This document shows positions 10,956-59,768 of a stretch of DNA of 64,000 nt, one piece after another (the stretch's first letter is position 1; every line of letters begins with the position of its first letter). The DNA lies in NCBI RefSeq assembly GCF_018350175.1, contig NC_058382.1, forward strand, positions 51,338,001 through 51,402,000, given 5' to 3'. This stretch comes from Felis catus (lineage: Eukaryota). A program made the translations under genes and the position numbers. The notes under the pieces were generated by a model. The model saw only the letters and a list, made by a program, of their open reading frames with translations, did not search any database and was not told the DNA's origin.

Positions 10956-11795
10956 CATGAAAAGATGTTCAACATCACCGATCATTAGGGAAATGCAAAC
11001 CTAAATGACAATGAGTTATCACCTCACATCTGTGGATGGCTAAAGTCAACAACCCAAGAAACAACAGGTGTTGGCGAGGATATGGAGAGAGGGGAACCTT
11101 CTTGTACTATTGGTGGGAATGCAAACTGGTGTGGCTACTGTGGAAAACAGTATGGCAGTTCCTCAAAAAATTAACAACGGAACTACCTGATGATCCAGCA
11201 ATCGCACTATTAGATATTTAGTCAAAGAATACAAAAATACTACTCCAAAGGCATACGTGCACCCTAACATTTATAGTGCTTACAGTAGCCAAATTATGGA
11301 AATAGTCCAAGTGTCTACCGATTGACGAATGAACACAGAAGAAGTGGTATTTACACATAGAATGGACTATTACTCAGCCATAGAAAAGAATGAAATTTTG
11401 CCATTTGCAATGACATGGATGGAGCCAGAGAGTCTTACGCTAAGTGACAGAAGTCAAAGAAAGACAAATACATTATGATTTCACTCATATGTGGAATTTA
11501 AGAAACAAAACAGATGAGCAAAGGGGGAAAAAAAGAGAGGGGAAACCAAGAATCAGACTCTTAACTACAGAGAACAAAGTGATGGTTACCAGAAGGGAAG
11601 AGGTGGGGGAATGGGGAAAATAGGTGGTGGGGATTAAGGAGGGCATTTGTTGTAATGGGCACCAGGTAACGTACCAAGTGTTGAGTCACTATATTGTACG
11701 CCTGAAACGAATAGTACACTGTATGTTATCTAACTGCAATTTGAATAAAAACTTATCTAACTGCAATTTGAATAAAAACTTTAAAAAAAAAAAAA
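10956..11795 (+). mobile_element. 5'-truncated L1 (ORF2 C-terminus, 3'UTR, poly-A)
   Basis: degenerate ORF2 peptide RCWRGYGERGTFLYYWWECKLVWLLWKTVWQFLKKL; poly-A; TSD aaaaggacaaggac(c/t)taggata. Confidence 0.93.
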
Positions 11796-14960: not shown

Positions 14961-16705
14961 CTCTAGGGATACAGAGAAGCCATATTCTCCAGGACAGGAG
15001 ATAAGGCTGCTGTTTTATTATTATAAAAATAATTTTCTGACAGTGATTTAAGGGATTAAAAACAAAGTGTCTTAGGCCCTGCAAAGGAAAATTAAATGCT
15101 GCTGTGAAAATTGGGATGGGGAGCAGATCACATGACTACCTAAAGAAGCTTTGCAGCTGTCATTTAATTAATAGAGTATCTTGGGGATGATTTCACCAAA
15201 GAAGCCACAAAACAACAAAGAGAACTTATGTTTTCTTTGAAGATTTCTATTCCCCCCAAAGAGGCCCACTTTTATATTGAGTTTCCCACATGCCTTCCCT
15301 CAACTTAAAATTATGTAAGGATCCTATGAAGAGTAAGATTCTTCTTAAAAACTTTTTGAAGTTTTCGTTTAAGTTCCAGTTAGCTAACATACAGTATAAT
15401 ATTTGTCTCAAATGTACAATATAGTGACTCAATACTTCCATACATCACCCAGTGCTCATCACAGCAAGTGCACTCCTTAATCCCCATCACCTTGTTCAAG
15501 CCACTCCCCTACCCACCTCCACTCTGGTAACCATCCGTTTGTTCTCTGTAGTTAAGAGTTTGTTTCTTGGTTTGTCTCTTTTTCCCCCTTTGCTCATTTG
15601 TTTTGTTTCTTAAATTCCACATGAGTGCAATCGTAATGTATTTGTTTCTCTGAGTTCTTTCACTAAGCTTAATACTTTCTAGCTCCATCCATGTCATTGA
15701 GAATGGCAAGATTTCACTCTTTTGATGGCTGAGTAATATTCCATTGTATATATTTACCACCTCTTCTTGATCCACTCATCAGCCAATGGACACTCGGGCT
15801 GTTCCATTATTTGGCTATTGTAGATAATGCTGCTATAAACATCAGGGTGCATGGAACACTCTGAATTAGGGTTTTTGTATTCTCTGGGTAAACAGTAGTA
15901 CAACTGCTGGATCATCAGGTAGTTCTATTATTAACTCTTTGAGGGACCTCCATACTGTTTTCCACAGTGGCTGCATCGATTTGCATTCGGCACCAACTGT
16001 GCAAGAGGGTTAGCTTTTCTCTGCATCCTCACCAACCCCTGTTGTTTCTTGGGTGGTTGATTTTAGCCCTTTGGACAGACGTGAGGTGGTATCTCATTGT
16101 AGTTTTGATTTGTATTTTCCTAATGATGAGTGCGTTGAGCATCTTTCCACACGTCGGTTGACCATCTGGATGGTCATTTTCTTCGGAAAATGTTCACGTC
16201 TTCTGTCCATTTTTCAAATTGGATTATTTGGTTTTGAAGGGTTGAGTTTTATAAGGTCCTTGTATAATTTAGATACTAACCCTTTATTGGATATGCATAC
16301 CTTAATTTTGCTGATTATTTCCTTTGCTGTGCAGATGCTTTTCATCTTGAGGTAGTCCTACTAGTTTATTTTTGCTTTTGCTTTCCTTGCTTCAGGAGAC
16401 GTATCTAGAAAGAAATTGCTACGGCTGATGTCAAAGAAGTTACTGCCTGTGTTCTCCTCTAGAATTTGTATGTTTTCAGGTCTCACATTTTGGTCTTTCA
16501 TCAATTTTGAATTTATTTTTGTGTATGGTATAAGAAGTGGTCCAGTTTCATTCTTCTGCATGTCGCTGTCTGGTTTTCCCAGCACCATTTATTGAAGAGA
16601 TTTTTCCCATGAGATATTCTTCATGCTTTGTCAAAAATTACTTGACAATGTAACTGTGAGTTCATTTCTGGCCTTTCTATTCTGTTCCAGTGAGCTATGT
16701 GTCTA

Positions 16706-30083: not shown

Positions 30084-30900
30084 CTGTGACAAAAATAAAT
30101 AAACAGATAAAAGTGCGAAAATCAAGGATCAGAAAAGCCCGTGGGTAAGAATAACCAAGACGTATGTACATGGGTCCCTGTTTTTCTCTCTTAAGAAAAT
30201 CAGAAAGCGAGTACAGTTTTAGGGTTAAAAGCAGAGTCTCAAGTTTGACCGGGGCTTCTGATCCTTCCTCTGCCTTGACCAGAGGTAGGACTAGGGAAGT
30301 TCTAGAACTCATCTAAAGCTTGCTGAGTCTCTTCATTTGGAAAACTGGAATAAAAAGTCACTGGCAAGTGAGCTCTGCTGCTGAAACATAACAATGCTGG
30401 GCCACCTGCATGACCCCCACCCCTCCCCACTCAATCCCCCCAAAGAACACAGACACATAGACACACACACACACAGGCTCGCGATGGAATTAAAAGGCAG
30501 ACTAACTGGCCATAAATATGAGTACTGTTTCATAACACATCTGTGGGGCTCTAACCACATAACAAACATACTTAGCAAACATGCTGGGCAAATTTACTAT
30601 TATCTATATTCTTATTTAATTGTTGCGACTACTGGGTGTAGCAAGGTATGTCATCATCTCCACTGCATACATGTGGGGACGGAGTGAAGAGGAAGGAACT
30701 AAGAATGTCCGGCGGGGTCTCGCAGAGAGTAAGTGGGGACATTGGAGACAGTCCTCAGTTCGGATTTGCCAACAGAGCCCTTGTCCCTACGCCGCCTTTT
30801 CTCCAGACACAGAATCTCTTGTATCACTTCTCACGGTACACGTTTGGTATGAGGAAACACAAGCGTGACCACACGTCCCAAAGTAGAAATGTTCGCTTAC

Positions 30901-31031
30901 TTCACAGATCCCATCAATACAAACGTCGTGTTTGTTTGGGGAGCAAGGAGTTCCGTCTTTCACCTTGCCAGACATTGCGAAAAAAAATTCAAAGTTCTCA
31001 GCCTTGCAGTACAGTTTACATCGATCTGCCT
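30901..31031 (-). CDS. ADAMTS18: ADAMTS18 exon ~14 (131 nt): (E)ADRCKLYCKAENFEFFFAMSGKVKDGTPCSPNKHDVCIDGICE, Cys-rich domain
   Basis: ttgcttctag acceptor, gtaagc donor; within ORF 30787..31041. Confidence 0.95.
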
Positions 31032-31327
31032 CTAGAAGCAAAGACAGCAGGACAGGACGTGATCAGGAGGAAATCACCGGAAAATGACATGATGACCAAA
31101 AAGGGTACATTACATTTATTTAGAAAGCGACCGTGACTGAAATGGTCAATGTTACGATTTTGTATGTGGGTATGGGTGTGCACGCACGAATGCACGTATA
31201 CGTGGCTTTTAAAAACTTGAATCCCATTTACAATTCATGTAAAACTGCTTTCACACACAACCATTTTATTTTTCTAATCCTTGGTAAGAGCCACAGTACA
31301 CGTGATGGGTGGTTTGTACAGCTACCC

Positions 31328-31482
31328 TCATCGGTTAGCAAATATCTCAGGCTTTCCAGGACTTAGGGTCCACTACGGACGATATAAAAATGGAGGAGTG
31401 TTTCTGTGTTCCAATAAAACTTTATTTAAAAAAAAGAAAACAGGTCAGATTTGTCCCTCAGGCCATTGTTTGCTGACCTTGA
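31328..31482 (+). mobile_element. MER58A-like hAT-Charlie element
   Basis: ctgtgttccaataaaactttattta...cagatttgtccctcaggccattgtttgctgacc matches the recalled MER58A 3' end. Confidence 0.7.
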
Positions 31483-32014
31483 CTTAAGACATGGATTACT
31501 TTAGATATTTACTGAGAAAAAAGTTTAGGCACTTTGGGGAACAACAACAACAAAAAAGACATATGGTTCATGTTTATAAAACATACAGAGAATAACCATG
31601 TCATAAAAATGAGGAGGAAACAAACTGAACCTAAAGGCCAAAAAATGTAACTTTTATTGACTCTAAAGTGCCTGGGAAGTTTCTGGTATCACAGGCAAGA
31701 AGAAAAAAAAATTTACTGTGTTTCTACAGAGCTCTTGCTATCGGAAAGGAATTATGCCAATTTCCCAAATACAAATCGTTCTTCTTGGCCAGCACGGCCA
31801 GATGACATTTCTCACAGGAGACTGCGTGGGCGACAGCACACGCAAGCCCTGACGACAGCTGCACAACAAACGTGTAAACAGTTTTCAAATAGCTGTGCAT
31901 CACAGAACCTCTCAGGAACAAAGTCCAAACTTCGATGCGAAAGAAGTTAGATTAATGTGATCCAAGTATGCAGATGTGTGGGTGGGCTAAAAGTCTCTCC
32001 TTTACCTAGAAGTT

Positions 32015-32256
32015 TCTTTTTTAATTTTAAGGGTTTTTTTTTAATGTATTTTGAGAGAGAGACAGACAGACAGAGGGAGAGCATGAGAGCACACGCAAGG
32101 GGGGGAGGGGCAGAGCCAGAGGGGGAGAGAGAATCCCAAGCAGGCTCCATTCTGTCAGCGCAGAGCCCAATGAGGGGTTCGATCTCAGGGAGCGTGAGAT
32201 CATGACGAGAGGCAAAACCAAGAGTTGGATGCTTAAGTGAGCCACCCAGATGTCCC
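32015..32256 (-). mobile_element. Can-SINE
   Basis: TSD cctagaa(g/a)tttctttt. Confidence 0.9.
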
Positions 32257-32773
32257 TAGAAATTTCTTTTAATAGCCTTATTGAATACCTCCTAATTTTT
32301 GCACATGAGATTATGGAAGACATATCTATACCCTTTCTTTTCTCCATCATGCCTAGGAATTGACAAGCTCTAGAAAGTTCTGGTTTTCCCCGCACAAGCT
32401 CCTGGGCAAGTCTGTGAACTAGTCTACTGGAAACAAAGCAGGAAAAAAGTCTCACTACCAGAAGACAAAGACTGCCTGCATTTATTTAGAATCTTCCCTT
32501 GTTCTTCCCAAACTGCTGAATTGTCACAAGACCTTTAAATCAGGGTCGGTCTTTCCTGATTCTAAGTACACGTTAGAAGGAGAAGAAGCAGAGAGCCCAG
32601 GCTGGGTCCCTGCTTAAGTCAACGTTGTCCCCCTGCATCTAGCAGAATGGCTCCTGTGCCATAAATGCTCAGTAAACATCTGTGAGTGAGTGAATAAAAT
32701 GGCAGGCTCCTTACTTAGTAAGGCTGTGATTAAATGAGTGAAAAGCTTTGAAACCAAAAAATATTTTACAGGT

Positions 32774-33190
32774 GGGGTGTCTGGGTGGCTCAGTCGGTTA
32801 AGTGTCCAACTTCGGCTCAGGGCATGATCTCACGGTCTCTGAGTTAGAGCCCCACATCAGGCTCTGTGCTGACAGCTCAGAGCCTGTATTTGGGAAATTG
32901 GCGTAATTCCTTTCTGATAGCAAGCTCTGTAGAAACACAGTAAATTTTTTTCTTCTTGCCTGTGATACCAGAAACTTCCCAGGCACTTTAGAGTCAATAA
33001 AAGTTACGTTGTGTGTTAAAGCAGTTTTACATGAACTGTAAATGGGATTCAGGTTTTTAATAGCCACATATACGTGCATTCATGCATGTACACCCATGTG
33101 TTCGGATTCTGTGTTTCCCTCTCTCTCTGCCCCTCCCCTGTTCGCACTCTCTCTCTCAAAAATAAAATAAAAACATAAAAGAAATTTAAA
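32774..33190 (+). mobile_element. Can-SINE interrupted by a 212-bp inverted copy of nearby intronic sequence
   Basis: SINE 5' part ends ...gacagctcagagcct and resumes ttcggattctgtg at 33101; TSD tattttacaggt. Confidence 0.92.
32886..33097 (-). repeat. Inverted duplicate of 31647-31772 fused to 31172-31261
   Basis: hand alignment: segment A has 2 substitutions and two 2-bp indels over about 124 bp; segment B has 8 substitutions in 90 bp. Confidence 0.95.
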
Positions 33191-33220
33191 AATTATTTTA
33201 CAGGTTATATTTATTTGCTT

Positions 33221-33385
33221 GGGGCACCTGGGTGGCTCAGTCAGTTAAGCTCCCGACTCCTGATTTCAACTCAGGTCATGATCTCACAGTTCGTGAGTTC
33301 AAGCCCCACATCAGGCTCCATGCTTTCAGTGTGGAGCCTGCTTGGGATTCTCTCTCTCTCAAAATAAATAAATGTAAAAAAATAA
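33221..33385 (+). mobile_element. Can-SINE (internally shortened)
   Basis: ggggcacctgggtggctcag head and aaaataaataaatg tail. Confidence 0.88.
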
Positions 33386-35075
33386 TTAGCTGGTTAACTT
33401 TCTCCTCATGTACTCGACACAGAACCTACTTAAAGGGTGATAACAAAACACGTTCCATAAACACTGAATTTGAACGAAAGGCGCACTGTGGGAACGACCA
33501 AGGAATACCCAAGAAGACAAAGCAAAGAAAAGAAGGGCAAGTGAAAGGAAGGACAAGAGAGTCTGGGGGAAAGAGCCATACGTGAGAAACAGGGAACCAC
33601 GGGAGTATACAACCAAGAGAAAATAAATCTTCAAAGGCTGGACTGGAGAGCACCTTAATGTATTCTACCTAACTGTCCCCGGGAACCTGTGTGCAGAGCC
33701 CCTCCTAGATAATAACTCAGTCCCTGGTAGGATGCCTCCAGTGAAGGAGAGCCTACTACTCATGAAGGGAAGATACATCCATTACAGACAGTTGGGATTT
33801 ATGTCTTCGCTCATTCGTTCTGGAAGTTACAAGCATGTGGCAAGGGCTATTCTCAGATGCTGGAGATACAAGCATGCTCAAAATGGACCAAGGCTTCATC
33901 CCACGGAATGTAAATTCTTGTGGGGAGAAAGATAATGAAAAAGTGATTATATAATATAAGCTCATGCACAAATAAGAGCTATGAAGAATCCAGCAGGTTA
34001 AGGATTCAGAGGATGACAAGAAGGAAGGATATTCTGGGCAGGCTGGCCAGAGAGGCCTCCCGGGGGAGGTACTACGTCTAGGAAGTTCTTAGCTCTTGAA
34101 TTAAGTCTATCCTCTGAAGCGATTTCAAATAAATCTAAATCCCCTTCTAGTTATTATCTCTGAATTTTTGTAGGTAACTAGTTACTTTTTTCTTGCCCTT
34201 GGCAAGCTTCCAAATTATTCCACTGGAGAATTCTTTGTCAAATGAATGTATTCCCAGCTTTATCACTGAAAGCCAAGAGAAAATGAAATGGCCCTTAGAC
34301 AAGCTAACTTTGCAGGCACACATTTCTTCCAGAAAACACGAAAGAGGCGTACCATTGAGTGTAACTTTCAAAAACTGTTTAAAACTCATTAATAAAGGTT
34401 GTACATATCTCTTAGTGCAGTTTAAAACCCTGGACACCGCCATAAATGCTGAGTTTCTATTTTTAAAAAAAAACGTGTACAGATTGCTCGTTGCTTCCTC
34501 CCAAGGCACAGATTTCAGAATCTTCACGTCCATCTCCACCTGGGCTTTTGGACAAACAGTCATGACCCAGGACCATGTCAGCACTCCTGCAATGGTTGAA
34601 CCGGTGCTGAGCAAAGTGCCACTACCCTCTCCTTTGATTTGCTACGTGTTGTGTGTTGTCTCTGACTCTGCTCCCTTCTCTACTCTAACCGGTAACACGG
34701 GTTCATCTCGAGCTTTTGCTCAGCTACATCCCTCCAGTTTATTTCCCACCAACTGTCACTAAATTCAGTGTGTCCCCATTCTGCACGTGTGCACTGGGGG
34801 GTTCACAGTTATCCTTTCTCAAGGGAGGACGGCTGGGTTTTGATAAAGCAAGTGAATGGAAGTAAGAGAAAGCAAATAACCAGAAGGGTGACAGCTTCGT
34901 CTGCGGAGGCAAGACGTTAAATTTGTATGTAAGGCATTAAATTTGTGGGACTAAAATAAATGTTTTGATACTGAGGTAAAATAAAAACAATTTAATATAA
35001 AAAAGTAAAATATAAGCCATAACTTTAAGTAATAAGTACTGAGAACCCAGAAGAGAGACAATTTTAAATTCATGG

Positions 35076-35550: not shown

Positions 35551-35723
35551 CTTCCACTTTTGTGTAGGGTTTCCACTGGTAGAACCATCCACGGAAAGGT
35601 TTGCTGTTATATTCTGCACATTGCTGGGCTCGGAAATCCAAGCTATTTTCACTGCAAGGGTTAATATTGCACAGCTGATATACACGGCTAGAACCTGGAC
35701 AGAACTTGCCACCATATTGAGGC
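35551..35723 (-). CDS. ADAMTS18: ADAMTS18 exon ~13 (173 nt): PQYGGKFCPGSSRVYQLCNINPCSENSLDFRAQQCAEYNSKPFRGWFYQWKPYTKVE
   Basis: tttttag acceptor, gtaatt donor, phase 2 to 1; DFRAQQC motif; partly in ORF 35444..35641. Confidence 0.95.
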
Positions 35724-37061
35724 CTAAAAATAAAATTAAAGAGCTTTAGTACTAGAGCTCACTATTAGGCATAAGCAGTAATAAAGGAGGGACAAGCAAG
35801 ACGAACACCGTCACAAGCTATGCAGTGCACACAGTCCATTACGAGAACGGAAATAACGTTGTACACAACACACCGTGTCCCTTCTTGTATCCATGGTGGG
35901 CATGACCCATCAGTCAAAGATTTCCCTTTCGTTACTTTCTTTCCTAAGTATAGGCCTTGGGTGGGCATCCACTGCTCAGCAACGAGCTTCAGATTAGATA
36001 AAACTTATGTGGCATCTCTGATCCAAGTTTTACATTCTGGCAATTTCCTTAAAGAGTTGATGAAGGCATCTTCTCGACACTGATCGTATCGCCGGCGTTA
36101 GGGACACTCGTAAATGCACCCAACACGTTCTTATGAATGTGGATATGTGTCCGTGTGCCACACTCACGGACACACGCACCCCACATGGGTATCAAGACTC
36201 TTCCGAAGTGGACCCGACCTGCTCTCCAGCTCGCCTCCCATTCCTGAACACACTCAGCTTTCTAGAGTGTGCTCTCCACCTGCTGCCACGTAGGAGGTGG
36301 GGACATGGAAGAGAAAGAAGAGAAAGCCCCATTCGCCACGATCTCCAATCCAGCTTTGTCAGTCATTGAGCTCGTATTCTGATTATTTATTGTCCGACTC
36401 GTCTATGTTTTATTCCAGTTGATCCTAAACTGTGAACAAAAATTCCCTTGTTTTCATCTGCATAATCACTTTTCAACTTCGTAGGTGGCCTCCTCCTCTC
36501 CTGCCAAGCACAATGGGAAATGGATTTCCAGAGAAGGGAATCCCATTAGAACATAAATAATTACGATCTAATGGCAGGCTCTCTAAGATCTCGGTAGGCA
36601 GACTGCAAAAACCAGAAGGCAATCTAAAGAAAAAAGGAGCATAAACCAAACCGAAAATTCCCAATAACGTCTTAACCAGCTCCTTCCAGGCACAAAACAA
36701 TCGCTCCTTCTCCTTCCTATCTCCAAAGGCGAAAACCCAGCTCTGGATCGTCTCACACAAAAGCTCAACGCAAACATGTACTATGAAAGAAGGCTCCGGG
36801 TGAATAAACTTAGGTGACTAAAATTCCTTGTCTCTTTAGGAAGCACAAGAATGCTGTAAAACACCCCTGGATCTGCTTCAGCATATTTTATCCAATCTTC
36901 GTGTAAGTGCACGCTAAGATGGATTCAACAGGAACGGGAAGTGTCACACCGCCAGAGTGAGATTGTTTCGCTATTTCGGAACATTCTGGGGCGACTACTT
37001 CAACGTTTCAGCAGTCACCGGGCTGGATCAAGTCCCCGAAGACTTCTTAAATCATTATCTA

Positions 37062-38114: not shown

Positions 38115-38735
38115 TGACAAACTATGGAAGCAGCCCAAGTAGGCATCGGTAGATGAATGGATAAAAAAGAGGTGGTATATATATATACAATAGAGTATTA
38201 CTCAGCCATAAAGAAGAATGGAATCTTGCCACATGCAATGACATGGATGGAGCTAGAGAATACTATGCTAAGCGAAATGAGTCAGGGAAAGACAAATACC
38301 CTATGATCTCACTTTGTATGTGGAATTTAAGAAACAAAACAATCATGGGGGGCAAAGAGAGAGAAAGCAAACCAAGAATCCGACTCAACTCTAGAGAACA
38401 AACTGATAGTTACCGAGGGGGAGGGAGGTGGGAGGATGTGTGAAATGGGGGATAGGGATTAAAAAGTATATTTATCGGGGCGCCTGGGTGGCACAGTCGG
38501 TTAAGCGTCCGACTTCAGCCAGGTCACAATCTCGCGGTCCGTGAGTTTGAGCCCCGCGTCAGGCTCTGGGCTGATGGCTCAGAGCCTGGAGCCTGTTTCC
38601 GTTTCTGTGTCTCCCTTTCTCTCTGCCCCTCCCCCATTCATGCTGTGTCTCTCTCTGTCCCCAAAATAAATAAACGTTGAAAAAAATTTTAAAAAAATAA
38701 AAAGTATATTTATCATGAATAAAATAAAATAAAGC
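38115..38735 (+). mobile_element. L1 3'-end fragment interrupted by a young SINE
   Basis: caaactatggaagcagcccaag...tactcagccataaagaagaatgg...tggaatttaagaaacaaaac. Confidence 0.85.
38477..38697 (+). mobile_element. Young felid SINEC_Fc-type element
   Basis: TSD aaaaagtatatttatc. Confidence 0.93.
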
Positions 38736-42728: not shown

Positions 42729-45304
42729 CTGTGAAAAGAACGCGTGACATGTTTCTTGTCAGAGTCCGCCTGGGAAAGGGCAAGGAGGTGTAGACACCTG
42801 TTCGTGAACAGGAAAAACAAGTATGGGGGCCAAAGGGAGAACGCAGGACACCTCGAGAGCGTTTCTTTGCCGGCCACGCTTCACGAACACCCAGTCACTC
42901 TGCATTTATTGCATGCGTTTTGAAAGGCTGACATCTAGCGAAGACGGGTCTGTCACCAGCCGGCCGAGGAGTACATGCTTTGTGAGCTGTCGAGGTGACG
43001 TGTTCAGATAAGATTCCACCCAAGGGCCAAGGGAGAGCGCGCAGGCACAGCGACAAGGGTGCCTCCCCCCCGACCTTTAGACACAAGGCTGCTTAAAGAA
43101 CAACGTGGATCATTCACTCAAGGAGAACCAGTTTTTTAGGTCCTAACACGGAATTTATCATTCTGATTACTCATCATAAAAACAGACATTTTTGTTTATT
43201 CCCAGCCATCCCTACAGAGCACGTCTTATGAAACAGACTAGCTCTCTGTCCACACGCATTGTGCTTTTAGGTAACACCCTTTGACCTTACGGCTGTGTGA
43301 AAGGCTCCTACTCCAGACCCTGAACCGATGACTTTGAACTCTCTGAGTGTCTTTTATGAATTAGCTCTGGGTCTTTCATTTGCCAACGCTCTGGTCAAGC
43401 CAGGGCGAGAGAGCTGTTTTCTGTGCTAACCTTTCCTTCTATTTTCCTCTGTGATACATTCCAGGCTTTGCCGGTCATCTCTGTCCTTGGGGACTGCTTG
43501 AGCCTCTCGTAGTGGTTTTATGCCTGTGGTGCTTTTATTATGAGCAAGTTCTGCATGACTTAGGGTAACTGCACACTTTCCTGAAAGCCTCTGCAACGAG
43601 ATCCAGCGGGTTGAGGTTTGGACCGTGCCAGCTTCTGCCGAAGAGTGAGAGCTGAGTCGCAGAATTATGGGAGAGCTGTTTGACTTTCCAAGTCCTCGCT
43701 TTTCCCCTGGGATACATGTGGCTTCTCGGCTGTTTATTGAGTTGCTAGTGCACTGTGCCTGGGTGAAGACACTGCTTCCTTCCTTCGATTCTTGCCGGGT
43801 GCGGATTAATTCTTGTGTTTTTAATTTGTCTTTGCCCCGGATTAATTTCACAGTCTGCATGAAATCACAGAATGCTGTTGAGAACTTTCAGGGGGAAAGC
43901 AGTTGGTTAGTAGAGGATTTTGTCTACTGTAAGCAGAAATCAGAATCTACCCTCCCAGGAATCCCCCAGGGCCGGACTCTCCCCGGCTGAGCCCAGTGGC
44001 TGAGACAAAAAAACAACAGCCAACAAGAGAAACAGTTCCAGTTTACGAAGTTGCTTCTAGGTGCCGGAAATGGTACAGGAACGGGGAGAGAAGGACTTCC
44101 CATGCAGGGTCTAACGTAATCCTCCCAAGGTGCTATGGAGTTAATAACTATTTCTGGATGAGAGAAACATAGCAAGGAAATACTAACGCAGCACCACGGA
44201 GACGGAGACTTCACTTAAACTCAGTAACCAAAGCTCCTCAACAGGATACGGATCCTTCGCGCCTCAGAGGCAAACGGTCCACCGATGTATCTTAACCCTG
44301 GTTTCTTTTTTTAAGACATGTGTTTTAAGATCCATTCCAAACCTTCAATTAATTTAGCTTTACTTCACTATTTTTCTGAGTATTGTCTTAGGTTGCTAAC
44401 GGATTGTTTCCTTCGGCTTGTCCATTCGGTATAGAAATCAGGAATAAATATATGAATGCAACGCACACCGACACACCCTCTTTGGATCTAACTGCAGAGG
44501 CTTTTAGGAAAGTGTGCAGTTATGCTAAGTCATGCAGAGGTTGCTCATAATATACACATATATATATGGACACACACATGCATAATCCACATATACGTAT
44601 AAAATTCTACACACGTAATTTAGCTATCCATCTATATACATATACCGATATGCACTTCTTCTAATTTCAAATTGAACGGCCAGATCTGGGCAGACACCTT
44701 TCCTGACAGATACCAAGCACGAGCCTTTCTTTCCTTCTCCACATGAGTAGATAAAAGTATGTGGCTTTTCATATCCTCACACGTTTACAGAAGATTCATG
44801 GTACAAAAGTCACCGAATGACCAGGGACGAGATAGGGAGGGAGAAGGATTGGGTCACGTTCCAGTTATAAAGGAACACGTGAACACAACATGGAATAGTT
44901 GCGAATCCGTAGGACACTCGAGATAAAGCGTAAGACCTGCTTGTGCTTATAAGAGCCCTGGCCTCACGGAGTTCACAGTCTCGCGAAGAGTCAGTTTCAT
45001 CCCCCGGTGTTGGAAGAGTACCACGTACGTAGATGCAATGGTAACCATACCGGTGTGATGATGGATGGAGCCCATCTAAATGCTTTCTGCACTGGGGTCC
45101 CTCAGAGTCGAGGGCGTTCCCCCACTATTGAGAACTGCAGTCTGGTCTTCTAAAATAATGATGGGGGTGGGGAGTGGCACTAGGACATCTGTTTTCGAAC
45201 TTCTGGCTTGAACTGTCTCAGGTTACAGTAACTAAAATCTAACCCGGGGCATTTTCAGCCCCCTGGAACTAGATCCCTGGTGTATTTATGTAATAAAAAC
45301 CTTA

Positions 45305-59359: not shown

Positions 59360-59570
59360 ATTTTTTTTTTCAACGTTTATTTATTTTTGGGACAGAGAGA
59401 GACAGAGCATGAACGGGGGAGGGTCAGAGAGAGGGAGACACAGAATCGTAAACAGGCTCCAGGCTCTGAGCCATCAGCCCAGAGCCTGACACGGGGCTCG
59501 AACTCACGGACCGCGAGATCGTGACCTGGCTGAAATCGGACGCTTAACCGACTGCGCCACCCAGGCGCCC
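59360..59570 (-). mobile_element. Young felid SINEC_Fc-type element (member of nest)
   Basis: probable TSD aatatttatt. Confidence 0.92.
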
Positions 59571-59571
59571 C

Positions 59572-59768
59572 AATATTTATTATTTTGAGAGAGAGACTGA
59601 GCACAAGTGGAGAAGGGGAAGAGAGAGAAGGAGAACCAGAATTCCAAGCAGGCTCCAGGCTCTGGGCTATCAGTACAGAGCCTGACACAGGGCTGTAACT
59701 CACAGACCGAGAGATCATGACCTGAGCCAAAATCAGACGCTTAACCAACTGAGCTACCTAGGTGCCCC
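59572..59768 (-). mobile_element. Older Can-SINE (probable host of nest)
   Basis: reverse body and head; probable TSD tgcttt(a/t)att. Confidence 0.88.

What the first reader, a model, noticed from the sequence alone, without database searches (positions are those of the whole stretch)
31172..33100. Two-segment, locally templated inverted insertion inside a SINE, creating a non-TE inverted repeat next to exon ~14
Seen: the SINE at 32774-33190 (TSD tattttacaggt intact) is broken at 32885/33101 and has lost about 8 SINE bases. It carries 212 bp that are the reverse complement of two non-adjacent unique stretches 1.1-1.7 kb away, 31647-31772 joined directly to 31172-31261. The 385 bp between them in the source, including an ancient MER58A-like element, are skipped. 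The skipped block is bounded by catttt...aaaatg, a short inverted repeat. The junction is not GT-AG on either strand, and the insert has no poly-A or TSD of its own. Inference: this is the scar of double-strand-break repair with template switching (polymerase-theta templated insertion or MMBIR-like), not retrotransposition. In the pre-mRNA the two copies could pair, and one arm lies about 140 nt upstream of the exon ~14 acceptor.
Basis: partly seen in the sequence, partly recalled or inferred. Interest (0 to 1): 0.7.

Follow-up and report, generated by a model that had tools for sequence, protein, structure and literature searches.

The report
Backwards local copy inside cat SINE
In an intron of a cat-family ADAMTS18 gene, two nearby pieces of the same intron were copied backwards into the middle of a short repeat element long ago; it looks like an ordinary, probably harmless DNA-repair scar, not a working part.

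Summary
Observation confirmed. A carnivore SINE (32774-33193, target-site duplication intact) in ADAMTS18 intron ~13 of a felid is split at 32886/33101, lacks about 8 nt and holds 214 nt: reverse copies of 31647-31773 and 31172-31261, skipping 385 nt, plus 3 nt. Both sources are single-copy in the window. The copies differ at 11 of 211 sites, 6 of them CpG decay running both ways, so it is old and not an assembly error. New here: the left junction is the exact foot of the SINE's own 29-nt hairpin; the middle junction has microhomeology (shared 7-mer, probably a 3-nt microhomology hidden by CpG decay); the 6-bp inverted repeat does not pair once flanks are folded. Best reading (0.6): one template-switching repair event after the SINE landed. 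It fails published definitions of polymerase-theta and MMB templated insertions (template within 50 or 100 bp) and fits 'local n-jump' copy-and-paste events. The arms can pair in silico but spare the acceptor and drift neutrally. Insert age is 0.5-0.6 of SINE age, equal age not excluded, so birth during retrotransposition stays open (0.13). No orthologues or reads were obtained. The scan has noted similar local inverted copies in other genomes.

The parts
30901..31031 (-). ADAMTS18 coding exon (131 nt; exon 14 by recalled human numbering); acceptor AG at 31033-31032
   Evidence: 43-aa peptide 100% identical to ADAMTS18 of Prionailurus iriomotensis, P0001; splice ends
31172..31261 (-). source of insert segment B; ends 140 nt upstream of the acceptor in the pre-mRNA
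   Evidence: 82 of 90 identical
31262..31646 (.). 385-nt block absent from the insert; closed by a 6-bp inverted repeat (31262-31267 with 31642-31647); holds an old DNA-transposon-like piece (MER58A, recalled label, untested)
31647..31773 (-). source of insert segment A (31644-31646 is the probable 3-nt microhomology, now 2 of 3)
   Evidence: 3 substitutions, all at CpG, and two 2-nt gaps
32034..32256 (-). older SINE in opposite orientation; forms competing SINE-SINE inverted pairs in the same intron
   Evidence: (I1, I4, I6)
32762..32773 (+). left target-site duplication (12 nt exact; 18 nt with the A-run)
   Evidence: D5
32774..32886 (+). 5' half of the interrupted carnivore SINE (full-length 5' end)
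32858..32886 (+). SINE-internal 29-nt hairpin whose 3' foot is exactly the left junction
   Evidence: I17 (14-nt arms, 93%); folds, also in an intact sibling copy
32887..33007 (+). insert segment A; 2-nt microhomology TG at 32885-32886
33008..33097 (+). insert segment B; its first 3 nt are the probable microhomology with source A
33098..33100 (+). 3 extra nt at the right junction, origin not assignable
33101..33193 (+). 3' half of the SINE with A-rich tail; resumes about 8 nt after the break
33194..33205 (+). right target-site duplication
   Evidence: D5
35552..35725 (-). upstream ADAMTS18 exon (13 by recalled numbering); the feature lies in the 4.5-kb intron between the two exons

Best explanation
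A neutral germline repair scar made in one event, some time after the SINE had inserted. A break or stalled fork at the foot of the SINE's hairpin left a 3' end on the + strand. That end folded back or switched to + strand sequence 1.1 kb to the left through a 2-nt match, copied about 121 nt moving away from the break, slipped 385 nt further along the same template through an A-rich microhomeology, copied 90 nt more, let go and was joined to the right half of the SINE with loss of about 8 nt and gain of up to 3. Shown: the anatomy, the junction sequences, the age signature. Inferred: the order of events, the role of the hairpin, the hidden microhomology, the enzyme (not identifiable), and neutrality.
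For: Both segments come from one strand in one direction, as one primer moving along one template would give. Left junction 2-nt microhomology; middle junction shares a 7-mer (1.2% of 20,000 random pairs) and reads as a 3-nt microhomology with one CpG transition in the source (177 of 15,102 comparable random pairs, 1.2%). Small loss and extra bases at the right junction. No poly-A or duplication of its own, no GT-AG. Best age ratio insert/SINE 0.48 or 0.63, depending on whether 4 or 2 SINE differences are counted. SINEs cover 8.0% of the window, so a hit in one needs no special cause. A second single-copy inverted pair lies in the same gene. Multi-template germline insertions were 33 of 103 and 26 of 99 curated calls in two people (PMC8421209, section 10). 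Of 9 transitions between the arms 4 keep a G-U pair, about what drift gives (read from the alignment).
Against: Equal age of insert and SINE is not rejected (p 0.10 and 0.34). The microhomologies are short, one is inferred, and the tests are after the fact. Distance and length exceed the published polymerase-theta and MMB-TI definitions. In yeast, complex insertions of two pieces from one locus in the same orientation were 'very rare' compared with inverted ones (PMC11724301, passage). Non-CpG differences are uneven, 0 of 118 in segment A and 5 of 79 in segment B (Fisher p 0.0096), which one event does not explain. No orthologue was seen.
Confidence: 0.6

Rival explanations
1. Born with the SINE. 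During target-primed reverse transcription the LINE-1 enzyme copied the SINE RNA from its tail, paused just before the hairpin, jumped to a local template (the nascent ADAMTS18 pre-mRNA, or exposed local DNA), copied B then A, and returned to the SINE RNA at the hairpin foot to finish a full-length 5' end inside one target-site duplication.
For: One duplication brackets everything. The insert reads in the sense of both RNAs, as template-switch chimeras do (10.1101/2025.02.02.635956, passage), though chance gives this half the time. Both junctions lie at the two alternative 3' feet of the hairpin; a rough count puts such a coincidence near 4-5% (my estimate). Age ratio interval 0.20-1.16 or 0.26-1.63 includes 1. 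LINE-1 insertions with two-transcript chimeras (nine) and with locally templated genomic DNA (three) were seen in cells (PMC11702581, passages).
Against: Needs three switches and a return to the same RNA almost in register. The cited locally templated cases were attributed to processing of the opposite DNA end, not to the middle of the element (its supplementary figure was not seen). Point estimate makes the insert younger. Only 1 of 8 substitutions in B is A-to-G, so no editing signature of an RNA template. A hairpin also stalls or breaks DNA.
Confidence: 0.13
2. Two steps: a single ~600-nt inverted copy (31172-31773) went into the SINE, and 385 nt were later deleted from the copy by slippage or end-joining at the same microhomeology.
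For: Leaves the same junction; the direct 7-mer and 3-nt match serve a deletion equally well. A long perfect inverted repeat is unstable (general knowledge, recalled).
Against: Deletions of hundreds of bases inside a given 600 nt are rare (recalled rates), whereas multi-jump insertions are common. No remnant of the skipped block occurs in the insert.
Confidence: 0.13
3. Repair after SINE insertion, but with the host pre-mRNA as the template (RNA-templated patch primed from the right-hand broken end).
For: Sources lie downstream in the same transcription unit; insertion patches derived from RNA are described (PMC5110952, first quarter read; PMC12065846, search listing only).
Against: Orientation cannot separate RNA from DNA templates here, since either broken end may prime. 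The skip is not a splice, the end stem does not form in RNA with flanks, and no editing signature is seen.
Confidence: 0.07
4. The inverted pair is kept by selection because it regulates splicing or editing of the nearby exon.
For: In the minimum-energy fold of 31000-33420, 120 of 130 and 86 of 90 source bases pair with the insert; duplex energies -203 and -138 kcal/mol.
Against: The acceptor and pyrimidine tract are outside the duplex. An ordinary SINE-SINE pair in the same intron is about as strong (-189). Six of 7 visible CpG sites differ between the arms and 7 of 11 substitutions break pairing. The exon is 131 nt, so skipping shifts the frame. This concerns function only; no RNA data were examined.
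Confidence: 0.04
5. Assembly artefact or dispersed repeat.
For: No reads were laid on the junctions; genome-wide copy number is untested.
Against: Differences are mostly CpG transitions in both directions (insert keeps 2 CpG that the source lost, source keeps 4 that the insert lost), which assembly errors do not make. Fourteen DNA-type runs from 8 studies hold 0.89-0.93 of the sampled words of 30850-33250; insert-specific words are 211 of 2371, so 6 of 14 runs at 0.92-0.93 sit just above the ~0.91 ceiling for an animal without the insert: weak support only.
Confidence: 0.03

Closest known systems
Local n-jumps / copy-and-paste clusters from template switching (Li et al. 2020, PMC7025897, passages read); FoSTeS/MMBIR (recalled)
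   Same: Several junctions phased on one chromosome, local templates, low-level copy gain, mix of inverted and non-inverted junctions.
   Different: Described in cancer genomes at kilobase-to-megabase scale; this one is 0.2 kb, germline, and millions of years old.
Complex germline MMB-TI (Osia et al. 2021, PMC8421209; abstract, section 10 first part, passages)
   Same: Inverted copy of nearby sequence, several template switches, short microhomology or microhomeology.
   Different: Their search requires the template within 100 bp; here 1.1-1.7 kb.
Polymerase-theta templated insertions, TINS (Carvajal-Garcia et al. 2020, PMC7165422, passages)
   Same: Aborted rounds of synthesis from 2-3 nt microhomologies, small loss at the break, A/T-rich insert.
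   Different: TINS are 3-30 bp from within 50 bp; single rounds rarely exceed 10 bp.
Class 2 templated sequence insertion polymorphisms (Onozawa and Aplan 2016, PMC5110952, first quarter read)
   Same: Patch of 73-414 bp size range in their cell system, end-joining marks, no poly-A or duplication.
   Different: Defined as templated from distant regions; this is local and two-part.
LINE-1 template-switch chimeras and non-canonical insertions (10.1101/2025.02.02.635956; PMC11702581; PMC4476161; passages)
   Same: One duplication around element plus foreign sequence, same orientation.
   Different: Known chimeras put the foreign piece 5' of the element; here it lies inside, and co-arrival is unproven.
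Feliform CanSINE subfamily II (Walters-Conte et al. 2014, PMC4084570, passages)
   Same: The host element groups by sequence with the window's older subfamily-II-like copies and lacks the subfamily I motif at that position; subtype IIA is dated from about 35 million years ago onward.
   Different: Subtype was judged by eye against window copies, not against the paper's alignment.

Membership tests
Local n-jump / template-switch insertion | All templates local, junctions phased on one molecule | tested here: met
   (on the assembled sequence; no reads)
Local n-jump / template-switch insertion | Copy gain with source left intact, inverted plus non-inverted junctions | tested here: met
Local n-jump / template-switch insertion | Microhomology or small insertion at junctions | tested here: met
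   2 nt left, 7-mer plus inferred 3 nt middle, 3 extra nt right
Local n-jump / template-switch insertion | Made in a single event | not testable with these tools
   needs orthologues; none found
Polymerase-theta TINS | Insertion 3-30 bp | tested here: not met
   tracts 121 and 90 nt against PMC7165422
Polymerase-theta TINS | Template within 50 bp of the break | tested here: not met
   1.1-1.7 kb
MMB-TI as defined by MMBSearch | Inverted copy of a template within 100 bp | tested here: not met
   inverted yes, distance no
Class 1 TSIP / retrocopy | Own poly-A tail and target-site duplication | tested here: not met
Spliced retrocopy | Skipped block is a GT-AG intron | tested here: not met
   0 of 4 registers on either strand
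LINE-1-made chimeric insertion | One duplication around both parts, same orientation | tested here: met
   also expected if the insert came later
LINE-1-made chimeric insertion | Both parts arrive at the same time | tested here: inconclusive
   age ratio 0.48-0.63, intervals include 1
Regulatory pre-mRNA duplex | Pairing preserved by selection, covers a splice signal, RNA evidence | tested here: not met
   7 of 11 substitutions break pairs; acceptor outside the duplex; RNA reads not examined
Known RNA family | Rfam match at gathering score | tested here: not met
   0 matches in 31040-33400

The most novel reading that the evidence does not exclude
A fossil of reverse transcriptase hopping in cis: while inserting a SINE into an actively transcribed gene, the LINE-1 enzyme stalled at the SINE's hairpin, copied two stretches of the host's own unspliced pre-mRNA, and returned to the SINE RNA. 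If so, other Can-SINEs should be broken at the same position by sense-strand pieces from just downstream in their host genes, a class that could be counted in felid genomes.
Probability: 0.08. Interest if true: 0.65.

Novelty: new member of a known kind. Interest (0 to 1): 0.2.

Why it matters
As a repair scar it matters little: it is a clean, datable example of a kilobase-range multi-jump insertion fixed or common in a germline, a range that read-based finders limited to 100 bp miss, and it could serve as a homoplasy-free marker in felid phylogeny. It would matter more if orthologues showed that SINE and insert arrived together, since that would show a retrotransposon picking up sequence from its own landing site in mid-copy. 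The break at the foot of the Can-SINE hairpin is a testable lead on whether this hairpin is a fragile or pause site.

Tried and rejected
Whole-genome copy number: no genome is held. Orthologues: the run search returned one organism plus metagenome runs (24 rows); no read-level data were obtained, so the junctions in independent animals, polymorphism, editing and exon skipping are all untested. Metagenome contigs: 595 pattern matches for the exon, 0 confirmed; 0 exact matches to a 23-nt arm motif. Look-alike stretches in this scan: 0 windows. Solved structures for the exon peptide: 0. Splicing as cause of the skip: rejected. The 6-bp stem as cause of the skip: pairs with probability 0.19-0.36 (RNA) and 0.09-0.18 (DNA) only when the block is folded alone; 0.001 or less with flanks, for both strands, both molecules and the inferred earlier base; the control there ran 25 of 60 planned random stretches, none reaching 0.1. 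A local template for the 3 extra nt: 5-mers fit both next to source B and 13 nt downstream in the SINE, too short to mean anything. Editing signature in the insert: absent. Prior description of this locus: none in the 10 papers listed for ADAMTS18/cat/intron/SINE (none of the 10 mentions ADAMTS18; 803 papers held 3 of 4 terms and were not read). A SINE interrupted internally by local pre-mRNA was not found in the listings or the passages read; most subscription journals are outside the library and supplements (notably figure S10 of PMC11702581) were not seen.

Full report
Setting. The window holds much of ADAMTS18 on the minus strand. The 43-residue exon peptide at 30901-31029 is 100% identical to ADAMTS18 of Prionailurus iriomotensis, the best of 70 hits, and that protein maps exon by exon from 62377 down to 1380. 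The finding lies in the 4.5-kb intron between the exons at 35552-35725 and 30901-31031 (13 and 14 by recalled human numbering). The protein hit and the SINE types point to a felid; the species was not determined.

Observation. A + strand SINE starts at 32774 and ends near 33193, with a 12-nt exact duplication on both sides. It stops at 32886 and resumes at 33101. Against a majority consensus of 13 of 21 window copies, 8 nt are missing. Between the halves lie 214 nt: the reverse complement of 31647-31771, then of 31172-31261, then 3 nt. The 385 nt between the sources are absent. Of 668 off-diagonal hits in a whole-window self-comparison, 6 pairs are low-copy; two of them are these arms.

It is real and old. 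The arms differ at 11 of 211 aligned sites plus two 2-nt gaps. Six of the 11 are CpG transitions, and they run both ways: the insert keeps two CpG that the source lost, the source keeps four that the insert lost. Both copies have therefore been decaying as methylated germline DNA. Fourteen DNA-type runs from 8 studies hold 0.89-0.93 of the sampled words; since insert-specific words are 8.9%, this is weak extra support. No reads were laid.

Age. Per lineage, CpG decay between the arms is 0.50 (interval 0.23-0.76) and non-CpG change about 1.3% (5 of 197 pairwise). The host SINE shows 7 of 10 CpG lost and 4 of 121 other differences, two of which are shared with a sibling copy and may be inherited variants. 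Three young copies show 6 of 39 and 5 of 342. A joint fit gives insert age over SINE age of 0.48 (0.20-1.16) or 0.63 (0.26-1.63); equal age is not rejected (p 0.10, 0.34). PMC4084570 (passages) dates the older subtype from about 35 million years ago and the young one to the last 5 million, so an age of roughly 5-30 million years is my inference. Unexplained: non-CpG differences are 0 of 118 in segment A and 5 of 79 in B (p 0.0096, after the fact).

Junctions. Left: 2-nt microhomology, and the junction is the last base of a 29-nt hairpin of the SINE (I17), which also folds in an intact sibling. The lost 8 nt are the second copy of a 7-nt tandem unit plus one base, so both junctions lie at alternative feet of this hairpin. 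Middle: source A and source B share a 7-mer just before the jump (1.2% of 20,000 random pairs), and the first three bases of B match the next three of A except for one CpG-type transition (177 of 15,102, 1.2%). I infer a 3-nt microhomology later masked in the source. The block is not a GT-AG intron in any register. Right: up to 3 extra bases, too short to assign.

Mechanism. Same strand, same direction, short matches, small loss: this is what one primer gives when it copies a single-stranded template exposed by resection or at a stalled fork, slips once, and is joined back. I put this at 0.6. The enzyme cannot be named; lengths and distances fall outside the published polymerase-theta definition (PMC7165422, passages) and the 100-bp limit of MMB-TI (PMC8421209), and inside the description of local n-jumps (PMC7025897, passages). 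Yeast data say same-orientation two-piece insertions from one locus are very rare there (PMC11724301, passage), which keeps a later deletion from one 600-nt copy alive (0.13). Birth together with the SINE (0.13 in all, 0.08 for the pre-mRNA version) gains from the single duplication, the shared sense and the hairpin foot, and from chimeric and locally templated LINE-1 insertions in cells (PMC11702581, passages; 10.1101/2025.02.02.635956, abstract and passages; PMC4476161, passages), but needs three switches and an in-register return. RNA-templated repair (PMC5110952, first quarter; PMC12065846, listing only) cannot be told apart by orientation.

Function. The arms pair in the predicted fold (120 of 130 and 86 of 90 bases), but the acceptor region 140 nt away stays outside, a plain SINE-SINE pair in the same intron is as strong (-189 against -203 kcal/mol), 7 of 11 substitutions break pairs, and skipping the 131-nt exon would shift the frame. 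No Rfam family matches. Nothing suggests selection; no RNA data were examined.

How ordinary. A second single-copy inverted pair sits in the same gene, multi-template germline insertions are a quarter to a third of curated calls in two people, and earlier unchecked notes of this scan list several backwards local copies in introns of other genomes, one inside a SINE. I found no description of this locus and no orthologue. Supplements of the cited papers were not seen and may hold closer cases.

Verdict. Observation confirmed; interpretation partly supported; a new member of a known kind; interest 0.2. One orthologue alignment would decide between later repair, later deletion and co-birth.

Noticed in passing
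window 43536-43605 and 44483-44552: A second single-copy inverted pair, 70 nt, 88.6% identical, about 880 nt apart, in another ADAMTS18 intron; the right arm abuts a TA/CA-rich tract. Probably another local inverted copy; an unrecognised old repeat is not excluded.
   Followed up: partly
window 43492-43869 and protein P0001 residues ~512-636: The Prionailurus iriomotensis ADAMTS18 model carries about 110 residues absent from bear, otter and lemur ADAMTS18 that match intronic DNA here: likely a mis-annotated exon in that record.
   Followed up: partly
window 32858-32886: The Can-SINE internal hairpin followed by a 7-nt tandem unit is present in sibling copies; whether it is a general break or pause site was not testable on about 30 copies (alignment starts show no other copy broken there).
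   Followed up: partly
window 10958-11754, 15359-16149, 38118-38462: Low-copy pairs at 76-78% identity over 350-810 nt, probably old LINE fragments.
   Followed up: no
window 59391-59768: One SINE (start 59571, minus) sits in the A-rich tail of another (start 59768, minus).
   Followed up: no
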